DNA of 64,000 bases from the sequence record MW749001.1, one strand, 5' to 3'. Below, in pieces: positions 7,257 through 54,753 of this stretch. How positions within the stretch are numbered: position 1 is the stretch's first letter; each line of letters begins with the position of its first letter. A program made the position numbers and the translations under genes. The notes beneath the pieces were generated by a model that worked only from the letters and a program-made list of their open reading frames with translations, ran no database searches and was not told the DNA's origin. This stretch comes from Escherichia phage vB_EcoM_Kelasse.

Positions 7257-7859
7257 TTATAGATTAAATCCTTCAAAATCAAGAGTATAGATAGTGTATG
7301 TTGAATACTTTTTGTACTCATATCTATCTGCAATTCTAAATACACTTCCAGCTGGTATCATTACTTCTTGTTCATCTGAAACTAATTCCATATTACGATA
7401 ACGATGGCTATCCGGAAACTTAAAGTTTGGATTGTATTCTTTACAGCGTAGAGCTTTTATAGCATACTCCTGGAAATTGAATACCATAGGAGCTTTGAAT
7501 TCAAAAATAACTTGTGTGTTATACTCTAAACCAGAAGCAAAATGTAGAGCTATATTTTTATCATATGAAGCTGATACGACTTTATCAAATGTAATAATAT
7601 CAATTCCTTGATTTAACACCTGCTTAGTCTCAGCTGGAACACCTCTCCAAAGAGGTTTATCGTTTGGAACCAAACGAGATTTGATTATTTCATTTAACCA
7701 AGTATGGTCATCTGGTTTGTTGGTAATACAATGAATTAAAAGTTCAATTTCAGATAAATTAAACCCTTCAGAAAGTAATTCTTCACGAATAGAAGCACGC
7801 ACCGATGCATCCATTGATTTTATTTTAAAATCTTTTAGTTGCATTACTGAGTATTTCAT
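7257..7859 (-). CDS. modA: ADP-ribosyltransferase ModA
   Basis: 200 aa; size and position as T4 modA, adjacent paralog modB. Confidence 0.7.
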   Translation of the reverse strand: MKYSVMQLKDFKIKSMDASVRASIREELLSEGFNLSEIELLIHCITNKPDDHTWLNEIIKSRLVPNDKPLWRGVPAETKQVLNQGIDIITFDKVVSASYDKNIALHFASGLEYNTQVIFEFKAPMVFNFQEYAIKALRCKEYNPNFKFPDSHRYRNMELVSDEQEVMIPAGSVFRIADRYEYKKYSTYTIYTLDFEGFNL

Positions 7860-8479
7860 TCAATTACCTCAATATCATAAACTTTAAATGTTCCAAATGA
7901 ATCGTGTAATTTTTCTTTTGAAATAGAAGTTATTTTATACTTTCCAATTGGAATCATCCATTCTTGTTCATGTACAATCATCATTAAGTTATCAGTTCTT
8001 TCTGAATCTAACCCATCAGTATCTTCATACGTGTACTTAAACTCAGTGTTAGGAGAAGAAAGTATAATATCGCTGATATGGTCAGAATAATTAAAAGCTT
8101 TATCAGTTTTTAAACGAAGTATTGTTTCAGTGAAATATTCAGCATAAGAAAAAGAACACGCTGTATGCAAACTAGTAGTAAATGAATCTACCCTGTTCGT
8201 TGAAAACACTTCTCCAACTTGTAAATCTTTAATAAGTTCTTTTGTCGATTTTGATATACCACGATATAATTGATAAGGCGATTTAGTTAAATGCTTTTTA
8301 ATGATTTTATTCAACTGCCTATGAATAGCTTCATTCTTTTTGGCTTCCATACATTGCCAAAGAACAGACTGCTCAAAGTCAGTAAATTTTTCACAGACTT
8401 TTTTATACATATCATATTGAAAATCAACGCTTTCAGCTTTTATAGATAACTGTTCAACATCTGCAGGATTAATAATCAT
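7856..8479 (-). CDS. modB: ADP-ribosyltransferase ModB
   Basis: 207 aa; size and position as T4 modB. Confidence 0.7.
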   Translation of the reverse strand: MIINPADVEQLSIKAESVDFQYDMYKKVCEKFTDFEQSVLWQCMEAKKNEAIHRQLNKIIKKHLTKSPYQLYRGISKSTKELIKDLQVGEVFSTNRVDSFTTSLHTACSFSYAEYFTETILRLKTDKAFNYSDHISDIILSSPNTEFKYTYEDTDGLDSERTDNLMMIVHEQEWMIPIGKYKITSISKEKLHDSFGTFKVYDIEVIE

Positions 8480-13310: not shown

Positions 13311-13937
13311 TTAACCTCTATTCATAAAAGCATTAAAAATTTGGTCATCAATAGAAACATTTACTTTAGACTGTTTTTCAGATGGTAATTCGTATCCACA
13401 TATTACAATTTTATGATCAATATTAAAATACACAGAAGCAATATGATTAATGATGTTTTCAGTAAAGTCTAAATCAACATCAATATCTTTTTGACCACAG
13501 CCCAAAGGATAAATAATGCGAGTAATTCGATTATCTTTAACAAAGATTCCACCGACATACTCTGTACTGCGTTTAAAGTCTACACGCCGACGAAATGAAA
13601 AATATTCAGGCTCTTTATGAGCTCGGCTCATAGGACACAACGAATAACTAGAATAAGAGATGTCAAATCCTACGCCTTCGATATGAGCCAAAGTGTCATG
13701 ATTAAACCAATTATAATCGTACGCCAAATCCATTAGATTATAATATGTAAAAGGCACCGGATTAACATCATTAGTCACAAGCATGTAATTAGCAACTGCT
13801 ATAATTTCATTGTTTTTAACGAATACAAACCGTGATTGATGCGAATGACCTGGACCCGCGTTTTCACGATTAATGATATAACACTGGGCACCTTTATATT
13901 TGTATGTATCTTTGCACTTGTGCATTTGATAGAGCAT
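13311..13937 (-). CDS. hypothetical protein (208 aa, 61.2 position)
   Basis: ORF track; position between 61 and sp. Confidence 0.55.
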   Translation of the reverse strand: MLYQMHKCKDTYKYKGAQCYIINRENAGPGHSHQSRFVFVKNNEIIAVANYMLVTNDVNPVPFTYYNLMDLAYDYNWFNHDTLAHIEGVGFDISYSSYSLCPMSRAHKEPEYFSFRRRVDFKRSTEYVGGIFVKDNRITRIIYPLGCGQKDIDVDLDFTENIINHIASVYFNIDHKIVICGYELPSEKQSKVNVSIDDQIFNAFMNRG

Positions 13938-52646: not shown

Positions 52647-52655
52647 ATCACCTTC

Positions 52656-52841
52656 TTAAAGCGTATTCACATAAGCTATTAATTCATTTTCTTTCTTATC
52701 AAACCGATCAGCAAATTCTTCCTGCTGTTCAGGAGATAGCGGGCCGTATTCATCATAAAAGGTGTTTGCTTCTGTATGCTCATCTAGAAGTTCATGGATA
52801 AGCTCAAACAATTTATCTTTTTGTTCTTTGCTTAGGCTCAC
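52656..52841 (-). CDS. hypothetical acidic protein (61 aa, GTG start)
   Basis: ORF track. Confidence 0.45.
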   Translation of the reverse strand: MSLSKEQKDKLFELIHELLDEHTEANTFYDEYGPLSPEQQEEFADRFDKKENELIAYVNTL

Positions 52842-53014
52842 AGTATGTCAATCCCCAAAAGTTTTAAAATGACTCGTTTCTGATTCATAACCGCTACGAT
52901 TGAATGACCGTTGGGGTCTTTTTGACCTGATCCAATTATAAATCCTTTTTGCGTAGAAAGTTTAATCAAAACATCAAGTTCACGTAATAATTGATATTTT
53001 AAATCATCATTCAT
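52838..53014 (-). CDS. small hypothetical protein (58 aa)
   Basis: Hand-translated MNDDLKYQLLRELDVLIKLSTQKGF...; ATGA/GTGA overlaps at both ends. Confidence 0.4.
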   Translation of the reverse strand: MNDDLKYQLLRELDVLIKLSTQKGFIIGSGQKDPNGHSIVAVMNQKRVILKLLGIDIL

Positions 53015-53238
53015 TTTGGTTTACCTTCTTTAACGAAATCAGGATAAGGATAAAATCCTGAATAAAATCCTTCACCTTTATGATTGATGCATCCTTTATT
53101 AGAACAATAGCACCAATAATCGAAATCACAAGCCATTTCATCGTTGCATAAAGCAAAAACAACCGGCCACTTACACTTTTCACAGTGGGCATTTTTAAGA
53201 ATACTAGTTTGGCTCATAACCATGTAACCTTTAAGCAA
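53011..53238 (-). CDS. cysteine-rich small protein (75 aa)
   Basis: Nine Cys including CEKC and CxC pairs; probable zinc binding. Confidence 0.5.
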   Translation of the reverse strand: MLKGYMVMSQTSILKNAHCEKCKWPVVFALCNDEMACDFDYWCYCSNKGCINHKGEGFYSGFYPYPDFVKEGKPK

Positions 53239-53426
53239 TATTCTTCTACATGTTGTTTACGACCTTTCTTATCAATAAAGGTATATTCAACGAATGTCCC
53301 AATGTAGTCTTTATCTACATCATGTGGACTATTAATTGGACATTTAGTACGGCAAATGCGTTCCCATTGACGAATAATTACTGCTTTGTTTTTAGGATCA
53401 AACGGATGTGGGTAATGCACTTTCAT
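53214..53426 (-). CDS. hypothetical protein (70 aa)
   Basis: ORF track. Confidence 0.45.
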   Translation of the reverse strand: MKVHYPHPFDPKNKAVIIRQWERICRTKCPINSPHDVDKDYIGTFVEYTFIDKKGRKQHVEEYCLKVTWL

Positions 53427-53877
53427 AATCCACCACTATTAAATCAATATCAGGAGTAAACATGTCGATTAATTTAGAAACCTTATCCCAATCGCCGCCA
53501 GCAATACCACAACCTATGCGTGGAATGTAAATTACCGGTTTAAACAAAAGGGTTTCTGCCTGTAGATTTAATTCTATCATGCAGTTTACTAAAGCACCAT
53601 AATCAAGATTAGGACCTGGTTCGTATTGCGTATACAGGTTATAGCATATACCAAATCCCGTAGGACTATGTTTAAAAACAATAGACATATCGCCTAATTT
53701 ATCGCGAGAACCGTACTCAGTAGTGGTTTTATCTATTTCTAAAATTTTGGGATAGGCTCTGGCTAATTGACCCGCTACACCTGAACCCATAGTATGAAAA
53801 CAATTGCACCCGTGCGCAATAATATTACCTTGAAGAAATAGGGCGACAATATCGCCCTTGATATATTTTACAATCAT
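53398..53877 (-). CDS. macro-domain protein, TARG1/OARD1-like (159 aa)
   Basis: Pattern KGDI...AHGCNCFHTMGSGVAGQL...PRIGCGIAGGDW parallels the TARG1-type macro domain. Confidence 0.6.
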   Translation of the reverse strand: MIVKYIKGDIVALFLQGNIIAHGCNCFHTMGSGVAGQLARAYPKILEIDKTTTEYGSRDKLGDMSIVFKHSPTGFGICYNLYTQYEPGPNLDYGALVNCMIELNLQAETLLFKPVIYIPRIGCGIAGGDWDKVSKLIDMFTPDIDLIVVDYESALPTSV

Positions 53878-54215
53878 CTAGTACTCAATCCTCGATTATA
53901 AGAATCTACCAAACGGTCAACCATTGAATGACAAGCGGCTTTATCTTTTTCCTCCGCAACTGAACATTCTAAGGTATTCCACTTTTTAGCATATCGTTTT
54001 AACAATGTATCATTTTTGTATCTGCTTGATTTATCTCTTTCTCCGTCTTTATATGCATATATTAATTTCTGTGCAAATTCAGCTTGGCATGCTTTATTTT
54101 TCCCGCAATAATCCGCTGCAGTACGGTTTACATACTCTCTAATTTCAGTATATGATGTATCTGCTAACGCAGAAAATGAAATTAATCCTATACATAAAAC
54201 CAAAATTTTAGTCAT
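53874..54215 (-). CDS. secreted protein (113 aa, vs position)
   Basis: Signal peptide MTKILVLCIGLISFSALA. Confidence 0.5.
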   Translation of the reverse strand: MTKILVLCIGLISFSALADTSYTEIREYVNRTAADYCGKNKACQAEFAQKLIYAYKDGERDKSSRYKNDTLLKRYAKKWNTLECSVAEEKDKAACHSMVDRLVDSYNRGLSTR

Positions 54216-54753
54216 TTACTATTTCCAAAAGTTTATTATTTTTAAGGTAATTAGCCTTTTCTAGGACTTCAGAAGCATATTTAGAACCTGCTTTAACATT
54301 CCATCCCGAATTATAAGAGGATATTGCTTTTCTTATATCGCCCTTATGTATATTTAACCAATAAGAAAGTTCAATGTACGCCCAGGAAGCTGAATTGGAC
54401 CGTTTATTCAACATTCTTTTTATTTCAGCATCGGTCATATTATAACCAAGTTCCTTAACTCTTGCTCGCATAGTAGGCAAATAATTTTGGAACATTCCGT
54501 AGGCGTGATGCTTTGGTTTAGATTTTAAATTAACTCCGCCAGAGCTTTCTTGCCATAAAATAGCAGCCATTATATGACCTAATCCGCTCTTGTGGATATT
54601 TTTGTGTGTTTTATATTTTCCATCCTTAGAAAATTGTTCCCCGAATTGATACGCGTAACGCATGTTATCGAGTTGGACATTACTGAAAGTATGCTCGGAG
54701 CTATGCGCCATCATTGAAATGGCCAATAGACCAGCGAGTAGTGCTTTTCTCAT
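54208..54753 (-). CDS. periplasmic lytic transglycosylase-like protein (SLT domain)
   Basis: Signal peptide; WQESSGG and YGMFQ motifs typical of SLT domains. Confidence 0.6.
   Translation of the reverse strand: MRKALLAGLLAISMMAHSSEHTFSNVQLDNMRYAYQFGEQFSKDGKYKTHKNIHKSGLGHIMAAILWQESSGGVNLKSKPKHHAYGMFQNYLPTMRARVKELGYNMTDAEIKRMLNKRSNSASWAYIELSYWLNIHKGDIRKAISSYNSGWNVKAGSKYASEVLEKANYLKNNKLLEIVND

What the first reader, a model, noticed from the sequence alone, without database searches (positions are those of the whole stretch)
53398..53877. TARG1-like macro-domain protein in a phage that encodes its own ADP-ribosyltransferases
The 159-aa product shows the TARG1/OARD1-type macro-domain pattern (KGDI..., AHGCNCFHTMGSGVAGQL, PRIGCGIAGGDW). 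The macro domain of the DarG antitoxin, which reverses DarT ADP-ribosylation of DNA, is of this structural type. A free-standing macro domain in the phage could remove ADP-ribose marks placed by host defenses, or tune the phage's own ModA/ModB (and Alt) modifications.
Basis: partly seen in the sequence, partly recalled or inferred. Interest (0 to 1): 0.6.

Follow-up and report, generated by a model that had tools for sequence, protein, structure and literature searches.

The report
Phage T4 Tk.4/AdfM macrodomain, variant allele
This is the T4-like phage gene tk.4 (recently renamed adfM), a small ADP-ribose-removing macrodomain enzyme.

Summary
The 159-aa ORF at 53398-53877 (minus strand) is real and carries the quoted motifs. 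It passes Pfam Macro. Its model (pLDDT 93) is closest to TARG1, BT1257, Poa1p, DarG macrodomains and SCO6735.

The window is a Tequatrovirus, and the gene sits between tk.3 and vs, exactly where T4 has tk.4. GenBank has annotated that gene as an "A1pp phosphatase"/macro domain. A 2025 preprint (HIDEN-SEQ) found tk.4 to be the only T4 gene needed on a DarTG2 host. A clean knockout sensitised T4, and the gene was renamed adfM.

What this analysis adds:
- **Catalytic residues.** The TARG1/DarG catalytic lysine is an invariant glutamine (Q84), and TARG1 Asp125 is Ala126. This matches the Gln-type hydrolase SCO6735, which cleaves thymidine-linked ADP-ribose from DNA.
- **Variant allele.** This allele is only 58% identical to T4 Tk.4, although the flanking genes are 96-100% identical. 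T2, T4 and T6 all carry the T4-type allele, so this allele is untested.
- **Possible RNA hairpin.** A GC-rich hairpin at codons 7-13 is much more stable than codon choice alone predicts.

There is no support for a role in tuning ModA/ModB. Verdict: already known, low interest.

The parts
53398..53877 (-). CDS of 159 aa: positional orthologue of T4 tk.4 / adfM, a stand-alone macrodomain (window-type allele)
   Evidence: ORF. Pfam Macro 32 bits against a cut-off of 22. PHROG 335 E=1e-71. Lies between the tk.3 and vs homologues as in T4. 58% aa identity to T4 Tk.4, E=1e-70. AF2 pLDDT 93.4 with a macro fold.
53874..53877 (-). ATGA overlap: the tk.4 start codon overlaps the vs stop codon, an arrangement that allows translational coupling
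   Evidence: Read directly from the sequence and from the ORF coordinates (vs 53874..54215, tk.4 53398..53877).
53800..53814 (-). Codons H22-G-C-N25-C26, the active-site motif. H22 and N25 correspond to SCO6735 His24 and Asn27; Asn27 positions the catalytic Gln.
   Evidence: H22, N25 and C26 are invariant in alignment A2. Among distinct viral homologues N25 is kept in 74/74 and H22 in 66/74. SCO6735 N27S is almost inactive (PMC9411070).
53626..53640 (-). Codons N80-L-Y-T-Q84. Q84 occupies the position of the catalytic Lys84 of TARG1 and Lys80 of DarG.
   Evidence: Profile alignments to TARG1 and to the Mtb and Taq DarG macrodomains. Q84 is kept in 73/73 aligned homologues. SCO6735 has Gln85 at this position and Q85A is dead.
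53488..53523 (-). Codons P119-RIGCGIAGGD-W130, the phosphate-binding loop. G122 and G124 correspond to SCO6735 Gly126 and Gly128. A126 sits where TARG1 has Asp125.
   Evidence: SCO6735 reads PRIGCGLAGGTW. G122 and G124 are kept in 72/72 homologues.
53840..53858 (-). GC-rich hairpin within codons 7-13 of the mRNA (AGGGCGAU-AUU-GUCGCCCU), followed by a U-rich run. Function unknown. It may not belong to the protein's function.
   Evidence: Listed as terminator-like. dG -12.9 against -4.0 +/- 1.9 for synonymous recodings, with 0 of 600 reaching it. Compensatory variants occur in other phage lineages.
7260..8479 (-). Context only: modA (7260-7859) and modB (7859-8479), the phage's own arginine ADP-ribosyltransferases
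   Evidence: tblastn with T4 ModA (99% identity) and ModB (97%).
13314..13937 (-). Context only: homologue of T4 gene 61.2 (adfA), another anti-DarT factor of T-even phages
   Evidence: tblastn 96.6% identity to T4 gp61.2. Its role as AdfA is described in PMC11825919.

Best explanation
The gene is this phage's copy of T4 tk.4 (adfM), a free-standing macrodomain enzyme of the ALC1/TARG1-like class. Its most likely job is counter-defence. When the host DarT2 toxin attaches ADP-ribose to thymidines in single-stranded phage DNA, which blocks replication, the enzyme binds the ADP-ribose in its macrodomain cleft. That cleft is formed by the loops GSGVAG (31-36) and GCGIAGG (122-128). The enzyme then hydrolyses the N-glycosidic bond, restoring normal DNA.

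Unlike TARG1 and DarG it has no catalytic lysine. The invariant Gln84, held in place by Asn25, probably positions the distal ribose for a water-mediated reaction, as proposed for Streptomyces SCO6735.

Shown here: the ORF, the fold, orthology by synteny, and the conservation pattern of the active site. Shown elsewhere, and only for the T4-type allele: the genetic requirement for tk.4 against DarTG2. Inferred: that this 58%-identical allele does the same job, and that it acts by hydrolysis of thymidine-linked ADP-ribose.
For: The ORF and motifs are present, and Pfam Macro is above its cut-off.

The AF2 model has pLDDT 93.4 and pTM 0.88. Its top Foldseek PDB matches are TARG1, BT1257, Poa1p, the DarG macrodomains and SCO6735, all at probability 1.00 and TM 0.66-0.84. 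The family profile against PDB sequences gives BT1257 2e-19, TARG1 3e-17, SCO6735 8e-16, Poa1p 3e-14 and Mtb DarG 1.4e-11. The DarG models of NCBIfam and PADLOC are the best hits in those libraries, over the macro half only.

Synteny with T4 tk.4 is exact: tk, tk.3, vs, vs.1 and regB are 96-100% identical to T4.

The T4 genetics are direct. tk.4 was the only HIDEN-SEQ hit on a DarTG2 host, and the clean knockout was sensitised. T4 lacking adfA and adfN stays DarTG2-resistant (PMC11825919).

The active site is conserved. Q84 aligns with TARG1 K84 and DarG K80. Among distinct viral homologues Q84 is kept in 73/73, N25 in 74/74, and G122 and G124 in 72/72. SCO6735 carries Gln85 at the same position, cleaves thymidine-linked ADP-ribosyl DNA and protects against DarT. 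Its Q85A, N27S and G128E mutants lose activity (PMC9411070).
Against: There is no biochemistry for any Tk.4-family protein in the papers found. The T4 result is genetic only, and the preprint infers the mechanism by analogy.

This allele is 58% identical to the tested one. T2, T4 and T6 all carry the T4-type allele, so nothing is known about this allele.

The two lysines that position DNA in SCO6735 (K34, K89) have no counterpart by numbering offset (S32 and G88), and the protein is acidic (pI 5.0).

The closest solved relative by sequence, BT1257, has no known function, and the next, Poa1p, is a small-molecule phosphatase.

One bacterial homologue examined is not next to a DarT gene.
Confidence: 0.7

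Rival explanations
1. It neutralises DarT2 mainly by binding, either to the toxin or to the modified DNA, rather than by catalysis. In that case the divergent alleles would reflect matching to different DarT2 variants.
For: Catalytically dead SCO6735 Q85A, DarG K80A and TARG1 K84A still inhibit DarT in vitro, and SCO6735 does so most strongly (PMC9411070). The alleles are deeply divergent within near-identical flanks, a pattern one might expect for a factor that binds its target. AdfA and AdfB act by binding DarT (PMC11825919).
Against: The residues that stay invariant across 70+ homologues are exactly the ADP-ribose-binding and catalytic ones: N25, Q84, G122 and G124. Divergence between alleles is spread through core strands as well as surface elements, so it does not mark a single interface.
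Confidence: 0.1
2. It is a small-molecule ADP-ribose derivative hydrolase, acting as a Poa1p-like ADP-ribose-1''-phosphate phosphatase or an O-acetyl-ADP-ribose deacetylase, as the GenBank label 'phosphatase' implies. It would clear by-products of RNA repair or NAD-consuming reactions.
For: Poa1p structures are among the best sequence and fold matches. The motif H-x-C-N-C is shared with Poa1p (IHSCNC). The T4 record notes an 'A1pp phosphatase motif'. Aravind and colleagues argue that many phage Macro domains may prefer soluble ADP-ribose derivatives (PMC9503650).
Against: The T4 knockout phenotype is specific to DarTG2. Poa1p Phe152 is mutated in PDB entry 6lfu, which suggests but does not show here that it matters for function. 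That position is Ala126 in this protein, and Poa1p has Ser where this family has the invariant Q84. No Tpt1/KptA-type source of Appr1p was looked for in the window.
Confidence: 0.1
3. It reverses protein ADP-ribosylation, either the phage's own Alt/ModA/ModB marks or marks placed by a host defence.
For: modA and modB lie in the same window. SCO6735 and TARG1 also de-modify proteins (PMC9411070).
Against: Alt, ModA and ModB modify arginine (PMC8120803). The activities reported for this class in the papers read are on thymine- or uracil-linked ADP-ribose and on auto-modified PARP1. Arginine-specific macrodomains such as MavL are cited as a separate type (reference list of PMC13036486). In the HIDEN-SEQ screen, tk.4 was reported as a hit only on the DarTG2 host.
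Confidence: 0.05
4. Its main substrate is ADP-ribosylated RNA (uracil-linked) rather than DNA.
For: TARG1, DarG and SCO6735 all remove uracil-linked ADP-ribose from single-stranded RNA (PMC13036486).
Against: DarT2 is described as DNA-specific, and the T4 phenotype is tied to DarTG2. T-even phages remain sensitive to the mRNA ADP-ribosyltransferase system CmdTAC (abstract of PMC11618068), although that enzyme modifies adenine.
Confidence: 0.05

Closest known systems
Phage T4 Tk.4 = AdfM (anti-DarT factor Macrodomain; NP_049723; bioRxiv 10.1101/2025.11.20.689424)
   Same: Same genomic slot between tk.3 and vs, with flanks 96-100% identical. Similar length (155 against 159 aa). Same PHROG (335). 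Same invariant residues H22, N25, Q84, G122, G124 and W130.
   Different: Only 58% aa identity overall: 83% in residues 1-48, 41% in 49-80 and 21% in 132-155. The phosphate loop reads GCGIAGGD here and GAGIGKGN in T4. All published genetics (T4, and the resistance of T2) concern the T4-type allele.
Streptomyces coelicolor SCO6735 (PDB 5e3b), a Gln-type ALC1/TARG1-like macrodomain
   Same: Gln at the position of the catalytic lysine. Equivalents of His24, Asn27, Gly126 and Gly128 are conserved. The loop is nearly identical (PRIGCGLAGGTW against PRIGCGIAGGDW). SCO6735 is stand-alone, cleaves thymidine-linked ADP-ribosyl DNA and protects against DarT.
   Different: It is a bacterial chromosomal gene linked to DNA damage and antibiotic production. 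Its DNA-positioning lysines K34 and K89 are not conserved here. Sequence similarity is distant (phmmer E=1e-7).
DarG antitoxin macrodomain (PDB 5m3i, 5m31, 7omu; NCBIfam NF048014)
   Same: Same fold class. The best hits in NCBIfam and PADLOC are the DarG models. DarG is the natural antagonist of DarT2.
   Different: DarG is about 340 aa with a C-terminal DarT-binding domain, is encoded next to darT, and uses Lys80. This protein is 159 aa, has no such domain, has no darT neighbour, and has Gln at that position. It scores 27.6 bits against a cut-off of 250.
Human TARG1/OARD1 (PDB 4j5r)
   Same: Best structural match (E=2e-9, TM up to 0.84). The N-terminal (Y)xKGD motif and the PRIGCG loop are shared. 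TARG1 also removes thymidine-linked ADP-ribose.
   Different: The catalytic dyad Lys84/Asp125 is replaced by Gln84/Ala126. About 20% sequence identity.
Bacteroides thetaiotaomicron BT1257 (PDB 2fg1, 2afc)
   Same: Closest solved protein by sequence (profile E=2e-19). It has N and Q at the positions of N80 and Q84, and PRIGCGLAGGKW.
   Different: It is a structural-genomics protein with no assigned function, so it adds no functional information.
PhiKZ gp104, also named AdfM (Cell Rep 2026, PMC13309987)
   Same: A phage stand-alone macrodomain that counters DarTG2. It was shown in vitro to remove DarT2-placed ADP-ribose from DNA.
   Different: It belongs to a different lineage, DarG-like with the lysine motif FPTKDNW, and is imported into the phage nucleus. 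It shares only 23% identity with this family (hhalign probability 96.6%). Two groups have used the same name for non-orthologous proteins.

Membership tests
Macro domain superfamily (Pfam PF01661) | Scores above the curated Pfam gathering threshold | tested here: met
   32 bits against a cut-off of 22, E=1.3e-7, covering profile positions 2-117 of 118.
Macro domain superfamily (Pfam PF01661) | Three-layer alpha/beta macro fold with an ADP-ribose cleft lined by two glycine-rich loops | tested here: met
   AF2 pLDDT 93.4. 159 PDB matches at E<=0.001, and all 50 listed are macrodomain structures or serine hydrolases designed on a macrodomain scaffold. The loops GSGVAG (31-36) and GCGIAGG (122-128) are present.
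Macro domain superfamily (Pfam PF01661) | Binds ADP-ribose | not testable with these tools
   Needs ITC, a thermal-shift assay or a co-crystal structure.
T4 Tk.4 / AdfM orthologous group | Same genomic position (tk - tk.x - tk.4 - vs - vs.1 - regB) in a T4-like genome | tested here: met
   the neighbours are 96-100% identical to T4 tk.3, vs, vs.1, regB and tk.
T4 Tk.4 / AdfM orthologous group | Full-length sequence homology to T4 Tk.4 | tested here: met
   BLASTP 58% identity over 155 aa with no gaps, E=1e-70. Matches PHROG 335.
T4 Tk.4 / AdfM orthologous group | Required for phage growth on a DarTG2-expressing host | not testable with these tools
   Shown only for the T4 allele. T2, T4 and T6 share that allele.
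TARG1/OARD1-type hydrolase | Catalytic dyad Lys84 / Asp125 | tested here: not met
   The profile alignment places Q84 opposite K84 and A126 opposite D125. Q84 is kept in 73/73 homologues.
TARG1/OARD1-type hydrolase | Closest structural neighbours lie in the ALC1/TARG1-like class | tested here: met
   The top 25 Foldseek hits are TARG1, BT1257, Poa1p, DarG, SCO6735, TTHA0132 (2dx6) and serine hydrolases designed on a macrodomain scaffold. MacroD-type and viral Mac1 domains rank lower.
DarG antitoxin (NCBIfam NF048014 equivalog) | Scores above the equivalog cut-off, with full-length architecture (macrodomain plus C-terminal DarT-binding domain) | tested here: not met
   27.6 bits against a cut-off of 250. 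Only profile positions 2-138 of 338 are matched, and the protein ends at residue 159. PADLOC DarG gives 27 bits over positions 3-144 of 329.
DarG antitoxin (NCBIfam NF048014 equivalog) | Encoded in an operon with a darT toxin gene | tested here: not met
   The neighbours are the vs and tk.3 homologues. No DarT-like gene is adjacent.
DarG antitoxin (NCBIfam NF048014 equivalog) | Catalytic Lys80 | tested here: not met
   Mtb DarG NFPTK80 aligns with NLYTQ84 at high posterior probability. The DarG sequence was verified against PDB 5m3i.
SCO6735-type (Gln) thymidine-ADP-ribose DNA hydrolase | Gln at the catalytic-lysine position, supported by a conserved Asn (Asn27) and His (His24) | tested here: met
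   Q84, N25 and H22 are present and conserved. The equivalence Q85 = K84 = K80 is stated in PMC9411070 and combined with the alignments. A direct alignment of SCO6735 to this protein around Q85 was not obtained; one search aligned only the C-terminal loop.
SCO6735-type (Gln) thymidine-ADP-ribose DNA hydrolase | Phosphate-binding loop glycines (Gly126, Gly128) | tested here: met
   PRIGCGLAGGTW in 5e3b aligns with PRIGCGIAGGDW. G122 and G124 are kept in 72/72 homologues.
SCO6735-type (Gln) thymidine-ADP-ribose DNA hydrolase | DNA-positioning lysines Lys34 and Lys89 | tested here: inconclusive
   By numbering offset the equivalents are S32 and G88, so no lysine is present. This rests on an offset and not on a structural superposition.
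SCO6735-type (Gln) thymidine-ADP-ribose DNA hydrolase | Hydrolyses thymidine-linked ADP-ribose on single-stranded DNA | not testable with these tools
   Needs an in vitro assay with DarT2-modified oligonucleotides.
Poa1p-type ADP-ribose-1''-phosphate phosphatase | Residues probed by the Poa1p mutants in the PDB (His23, Ser30, Phe152) | tested here: inconclusive
   His23 corresponds to H22 (kept), Ser30 to T29 (conservative change) and Phe152 to A126 (not kept). These equivalences come from the alignments and the mutant names. The Poa1p paper was not read, so the importance of these residues is assumed.

The most novel reading that the evidence does not exclude
The tk.4/adfM slot of Tequatrovirus phages may be an allelic cassette under arms-race pressure. 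At least two deep lineages (58% identical) and intragenic recombinants circulate inside flanks that are 96-100% identical, while the catalytic residues stay fixed. The alleles could differ in which DarT2 variants, or which other thymine/uracil ADP-ribosylating toxins, they counter, or in whether they evade a host inhibitor. Separately, the selected GC-rich hairpin at codons 7-13 could be a regulatory element, such as an attenuator or mRNA-stability signal, that sets how much enzyme is made.
Probability: 0.2. Interest if true: 0.5.

Novelty: already known. Interest (0 to 1): 0.2.

Why it matters
DarTG systems stop phages by ADP-ribosylating their DNA, and T-even phages carry layered countermeasures (AdfA, AdfN, and now Tk.4/AdfM). 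Recognising this ORF as adfM assigns a function to a gene that many GenBank records still label "phosphatase" or "hypothetical protein".

Two points go beyond the literature read here and are cheap to test. First, the family is Gln-type, not Lys-type, so its chemistry should follow SCO6735 and not DarG or TARG1. Second, roughly 300 sequenced phages carry an allele that is 58% identical to the only allele tested genetically. Both matter for predicting which phages, including therapeutic ones, will escape DarTG2.

Tried and rejected
**Membership as a DarG equivalog.** Rejected. The score is 27.6 bits against a cut-off of 250, the C-terminal domain is missing, and there is no darT neighbour.

**A true TARG1-type mechanism.** Rejected because the K84/D125 dyad is absent.

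**Direct alignment of SCO6735 around Gln85.** PDB searches showed only the top five alignments. A C-terminal fragment query aligned only the PRIGCG loop of 5e3b. The Q84 = Q85 equivalence is therefore indirect, through TARG1 K84 and DarG K80.

**hhalign of the family against PhiKZ gp104**. It confirmed distant homology, but the alignment was unreliable in the catalytic strand, so it was not used for residue mapping.

**Bacterial origin as an orphan DarG.** One bacterial homologue (Pelagimonas) is stand-alone with no DarT nearby. A second look-up turned out to be phage-like contigs. This is too little to draw a conclusion.

**Promoter scan**. Promoter-like sites were no more frequent than in shuffles (19 against 20.9), so no promoter is claimed.

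**dN/dS between alleles.** Not attempted, because synonymous sites are saturated at this divergence.

Full report
**1. The observation**

It runs from 53398 to 53877 on the minus strand, starts with ATG and encodes 159 aa. The translation is MIVKYIKGDIVALFLQGNIIAHGCNCFHTMGSGVAGQL...IYIPRIGCGIAGGDWDKV.... Its start codon overlaps the stop codon of the upstream gene (ATGA, 53874-53877). Its 3' end overlaps the start of the next gene by 29 nt. Both arrangements are the tight packing typical of T4-like early regions.

The ORF is not a chance one. It passes the Pfam Macro gathering threshold (32 bits against 22, E=1.3e-7). It matches PHROG 335 at E=1e-71. tblastn finds homologues in 2859 phage records.

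**2. What the window is and which gene this is**

The surrounding 1.3 kb is 99.9% identical to Escherichia phage vB_Eco_NR1 and to many other Tequatrovirus genomes. In T4 itself (NC_000866) the gene order is tk, tk.1-tk.3, tk.4, vs, vs.1, regB. There tk.4 (NP_049723, 155 aa) is annotated "phosphatase; contains A1pp phosphatase motif".

The window's neighbours are nearly identical to T4 at the protein level: Tk 99%, Tk.3 96%, Vs 97%, Vs.1 100% and RegB 99%. The ORF is therefore the positional orthologue of tk.4. Other GenBank records label the same gene "macro domain protein", "Poa1p-like family protein" or "hypothetical protein".

**3. Fold and class**

An AlphaFold2 model was built on 48 homologues. 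It is confident (mean pLDDT 93.4, pTM 0.88), and only the last five residues are disordered.

Foldseek against the PDB puts TARG1 first (4j5r, E=2e-9, TM 0.72-0.84). BT1257, Poa1p, the DarG macrodomains of Thermus aquaticus and Mycobacterium tuberculosis, and SCO6735 follow. MacroD-type and coronavirus Mac1 domains rank lower.

A sequence profile of the family gives the same circle of relatives: BT1257 2e-19, TARG1 3e-17, SCO6735 8e-16, Poa1p 3e-14 and Mtb DarG 1.4e-11.

**4. The function has already been tested for the T4 orthologue**

The HIDEN-SEQ preprint (bioRxiv 10.1101/2025.11.20.689424, November 2025) screened a T4 transposon library on a host expressing DarTG2. [quoted passage not shown] A clean tk.4 knockout became sensitive to DarTG2. 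The authors noted the structural similarity to the DarG macrodomain and renamed the gene adfM (anti-DarT factor Macrodomain). They inferred, but did not show, enzymatic removal of ADP-ribose from DNA.

This fits earlier work showing that T4 lacking both adfA and adfN is still fully DarTG2-resistant, which pointed to a further factor (PMC11825919).

**5. Active site: Gln-type, not Lys-type**

TARG1 uses a Lys84/Asp125 dyad, and DarG needs Lys80 (PMC9411070).

The family profile was aligned to TARG1 and to the Mtb and Taq DarG macrodomains. The Mtb sequence was first verified against PDB 5m3i. These alignments place the catalytic lysine opposite Gln84 of this protein: NLYTQ84 against TARG1 YLITK84 and DarG NFPTK80. 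TARG1 Asp125 falls opposite Ala126.

The conservation is strict:
- Gln84 is invariant in the 48-sequence alignment.
- Among distinct homologues recovered from viral contigs it is kept in 73 of 73. Those loci were found with peptide patterns that do not include position 84.
- Asn25 is kept in 74/74, and Gly122 and Gly124 in 72/72.

Exactly this arrangement is described for Streptomyces SCO6735. Gln85 replaces the lysine there. Q85A abolishes activity and N27S nearly abolishes it. The enzyme cleaves thymidine-linked ADP-ribose from DNA, and a water-mediated mechanism is proposed (PMC9411070). SCO6735's phosphate loop PRIGCGLAGGTW is almost the same as PRIGCGIAGGDW here.

The protein therefore works like DarG but is not a DarG:
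- It scores 27.6 bits against the DarG equivalog cut-off of 250.
- It covers only the macro half of that model.
- It has no C-terminal DarT-binding domain.
- It has no darT neighbour.

**6. Two different proteins are called AdfM**

A Cell Reports 2026 paper gives the same name to PhiKZ gp104 (PMC13309987). That protein is a nucleus-imported macrodomain shown in vitro to strip DarT2-placed ADP-ribose from DNA. Its sequence keeps the DarG-type lysine motif FPTKDNW. It is only 23% identical to this family (hhalign probability 96.6%). The two are analogues within one superfamily, not orthologues.

**7.

modA and modB are indeed in the window. However, these enzymes modify arginine (PMC8120803). 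The activities reported for TARG1-like macrodomains in the papers read here are on thymine- and uracil-linked ADP-ribose and on auto-modified PARP1 (PMC9411070, PMC13036486). That this class targets Glu/Asp-linked rather than Arg-linked ADP-ribose is general knowledge. I found nothing that supports this reading, though it was not tested directly.

**8. What is not in the literature read here: a divergent allele**

The window's protein is only 58% identical to T4 Tk.4. The divergence has sharp edges:
- Nucleotide identity to T4 is 96-100% on both sides.
- It is 78-100% over roughly the first 125 nt of the gene.
- It is 42-65% through the rest of the gene, up to the overlap with tk.3.

Other Tequatrovirus phages show the same contrast, with tk.4 at 57-63% identity against 96-100% for the neighbours. 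In a different genus (Krischvirus) all the genes are about 41-53% identical.

Counting phage records by tblastn, about 312 carry the window-type allele (at least 90% identity), about 224 carry the T4-type, and 159 carry a third type that is 80-90% identical to T4. Phage SCS4 is a recombinant: window-like up to about codon 50 and T4-like after that.

T2, T4 and T6 all have the T4-type allele. Every published phenotype therefore refers to that allele. Because the catalytic residues are kept, I expect the same activity from this allele, but that is an inference.

**9. A hairpin noticed in passing**

Codons 7-13 (K-G-D-I-V-A-L) form an 8-bp GC-rich hairpin followed by a U-rich run. The simple terminator scan lists it.

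It is far more stable than synonymous recodings of the same peptide: -12.9 kcal/mol against -4.0 +/- 1.9, with 0 of 600 recodings reaching the observed value. The same holds in a Krischvirus and a Vequintavirus, and more weakly in a Vibrio phage (p about 0.015).

Some variants are compensatory:
- AAG..CUN changes to AAA..UUG in locus L029.
- GGC..GCC changes to GGA..UCC in Vequintavirus, together with an Ala-to-Ser change.
- The stem is lengthened through Lys-to-Arg and Leu-to-Thr changes in Vibrio phage D490.

Many other lineages lack the hairpin. It could be an attenuator or an mRNA-stability element. It was only partly followed up.

**10. Verdict**

The gene is already known, both as an annotated macrodomain and, since late 2025, as the T4 anti-DarTG2 factor. 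The increments from this analysis are modest: the Gln-type active site, the untested divergent allele with its cassette-like behaviour, and the 5' hairpin. Interest is low.

Noticed in passing
window 53840-53858 (minus strand), inside codons 7-13 of tk.4: A GC-rich 8-bp hairpin (AGGGCGAU-AUU-GUCGCCCU) followed by a U-rich run. Its dG is -12.9 against -4.0 +/- 1.9 for synonymous recodings (0 of 600 reach it). Compensatory variants occur in Krischvirus, Vequintavirus, Vibrio phage D490 and locus L029, but many other lineages lack it. It may be an attenuator or a stability element.
   Followed up: partly
window 53400-53750 compared with T4 (L002), SCS4 (L004) and ELT1 (L006): tk.4 behaves as an allelic cassette. 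Nucleotide identity to T4 is 42-65% inside the gene and 96-100% in the flanks. Phage SCS4 is an intragenic recombinant with a breakpoint near codon 50. About 312 phage records carry the window-type allele and about 224 the T4-type.
   Followed up: partly
window 52650-53200 (minus strand): The stretch between tk and tk.3 is unrelated to T4 tk.1/tk.2 at the DNA level (0-53% identity, with many gaps). It holds three small ORFs, including a Cys-rich 75-aa ORF (53011-53238, CEKCKW...CDFDYWCYCSNKGCINH) that looks like a zinc-binding module.
   Followed up: no
window 53874-54215 (vs) and 54208-54753 (vs.1), minus strand: Both products begin with signal-peptide-like hydrophobic N-termini (MTKILVLCIGLISFSALA and MRKALLAGLLAISMMAHS). 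That is odd for a protein named 'valyl-tRNA synthetase modifier'. The HIDEN-SEQ preprint reports vs as the gene most depleted in minimal medium.
   Followed up: no
window 13314-13937 (minus strand): Homologue of T4 gene 61.2 (adfA, 96.6% identity), another anti-DarT factor. The window therefore carries at least two layers of anti-DarTG genes in addition to modA and modB.
   Followed up: no
literature: PMC13309987 against bioRxiv 10.1101/2025.11.20.689424: The name AdfM has been given independently to two non-orthologous phage macrodomains. T4 Tk.4 is Gln-type, and PhiKZ gp104 is Lys-type and DarG-like. They share 23% identity.
   Followed up: yes
L097 (T2, AP018813) and L098 (T6, AP018814): The deposited annotations of these two records give clearly wrong product names in this region, for example 'tail assembly protein', 'terminase small subunit' and 'rI antiholin' for 40-70-aa ORFs next to tk. 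The tk.4 orthologues are labelled 'hypothetical protein'.
   Followed up: no
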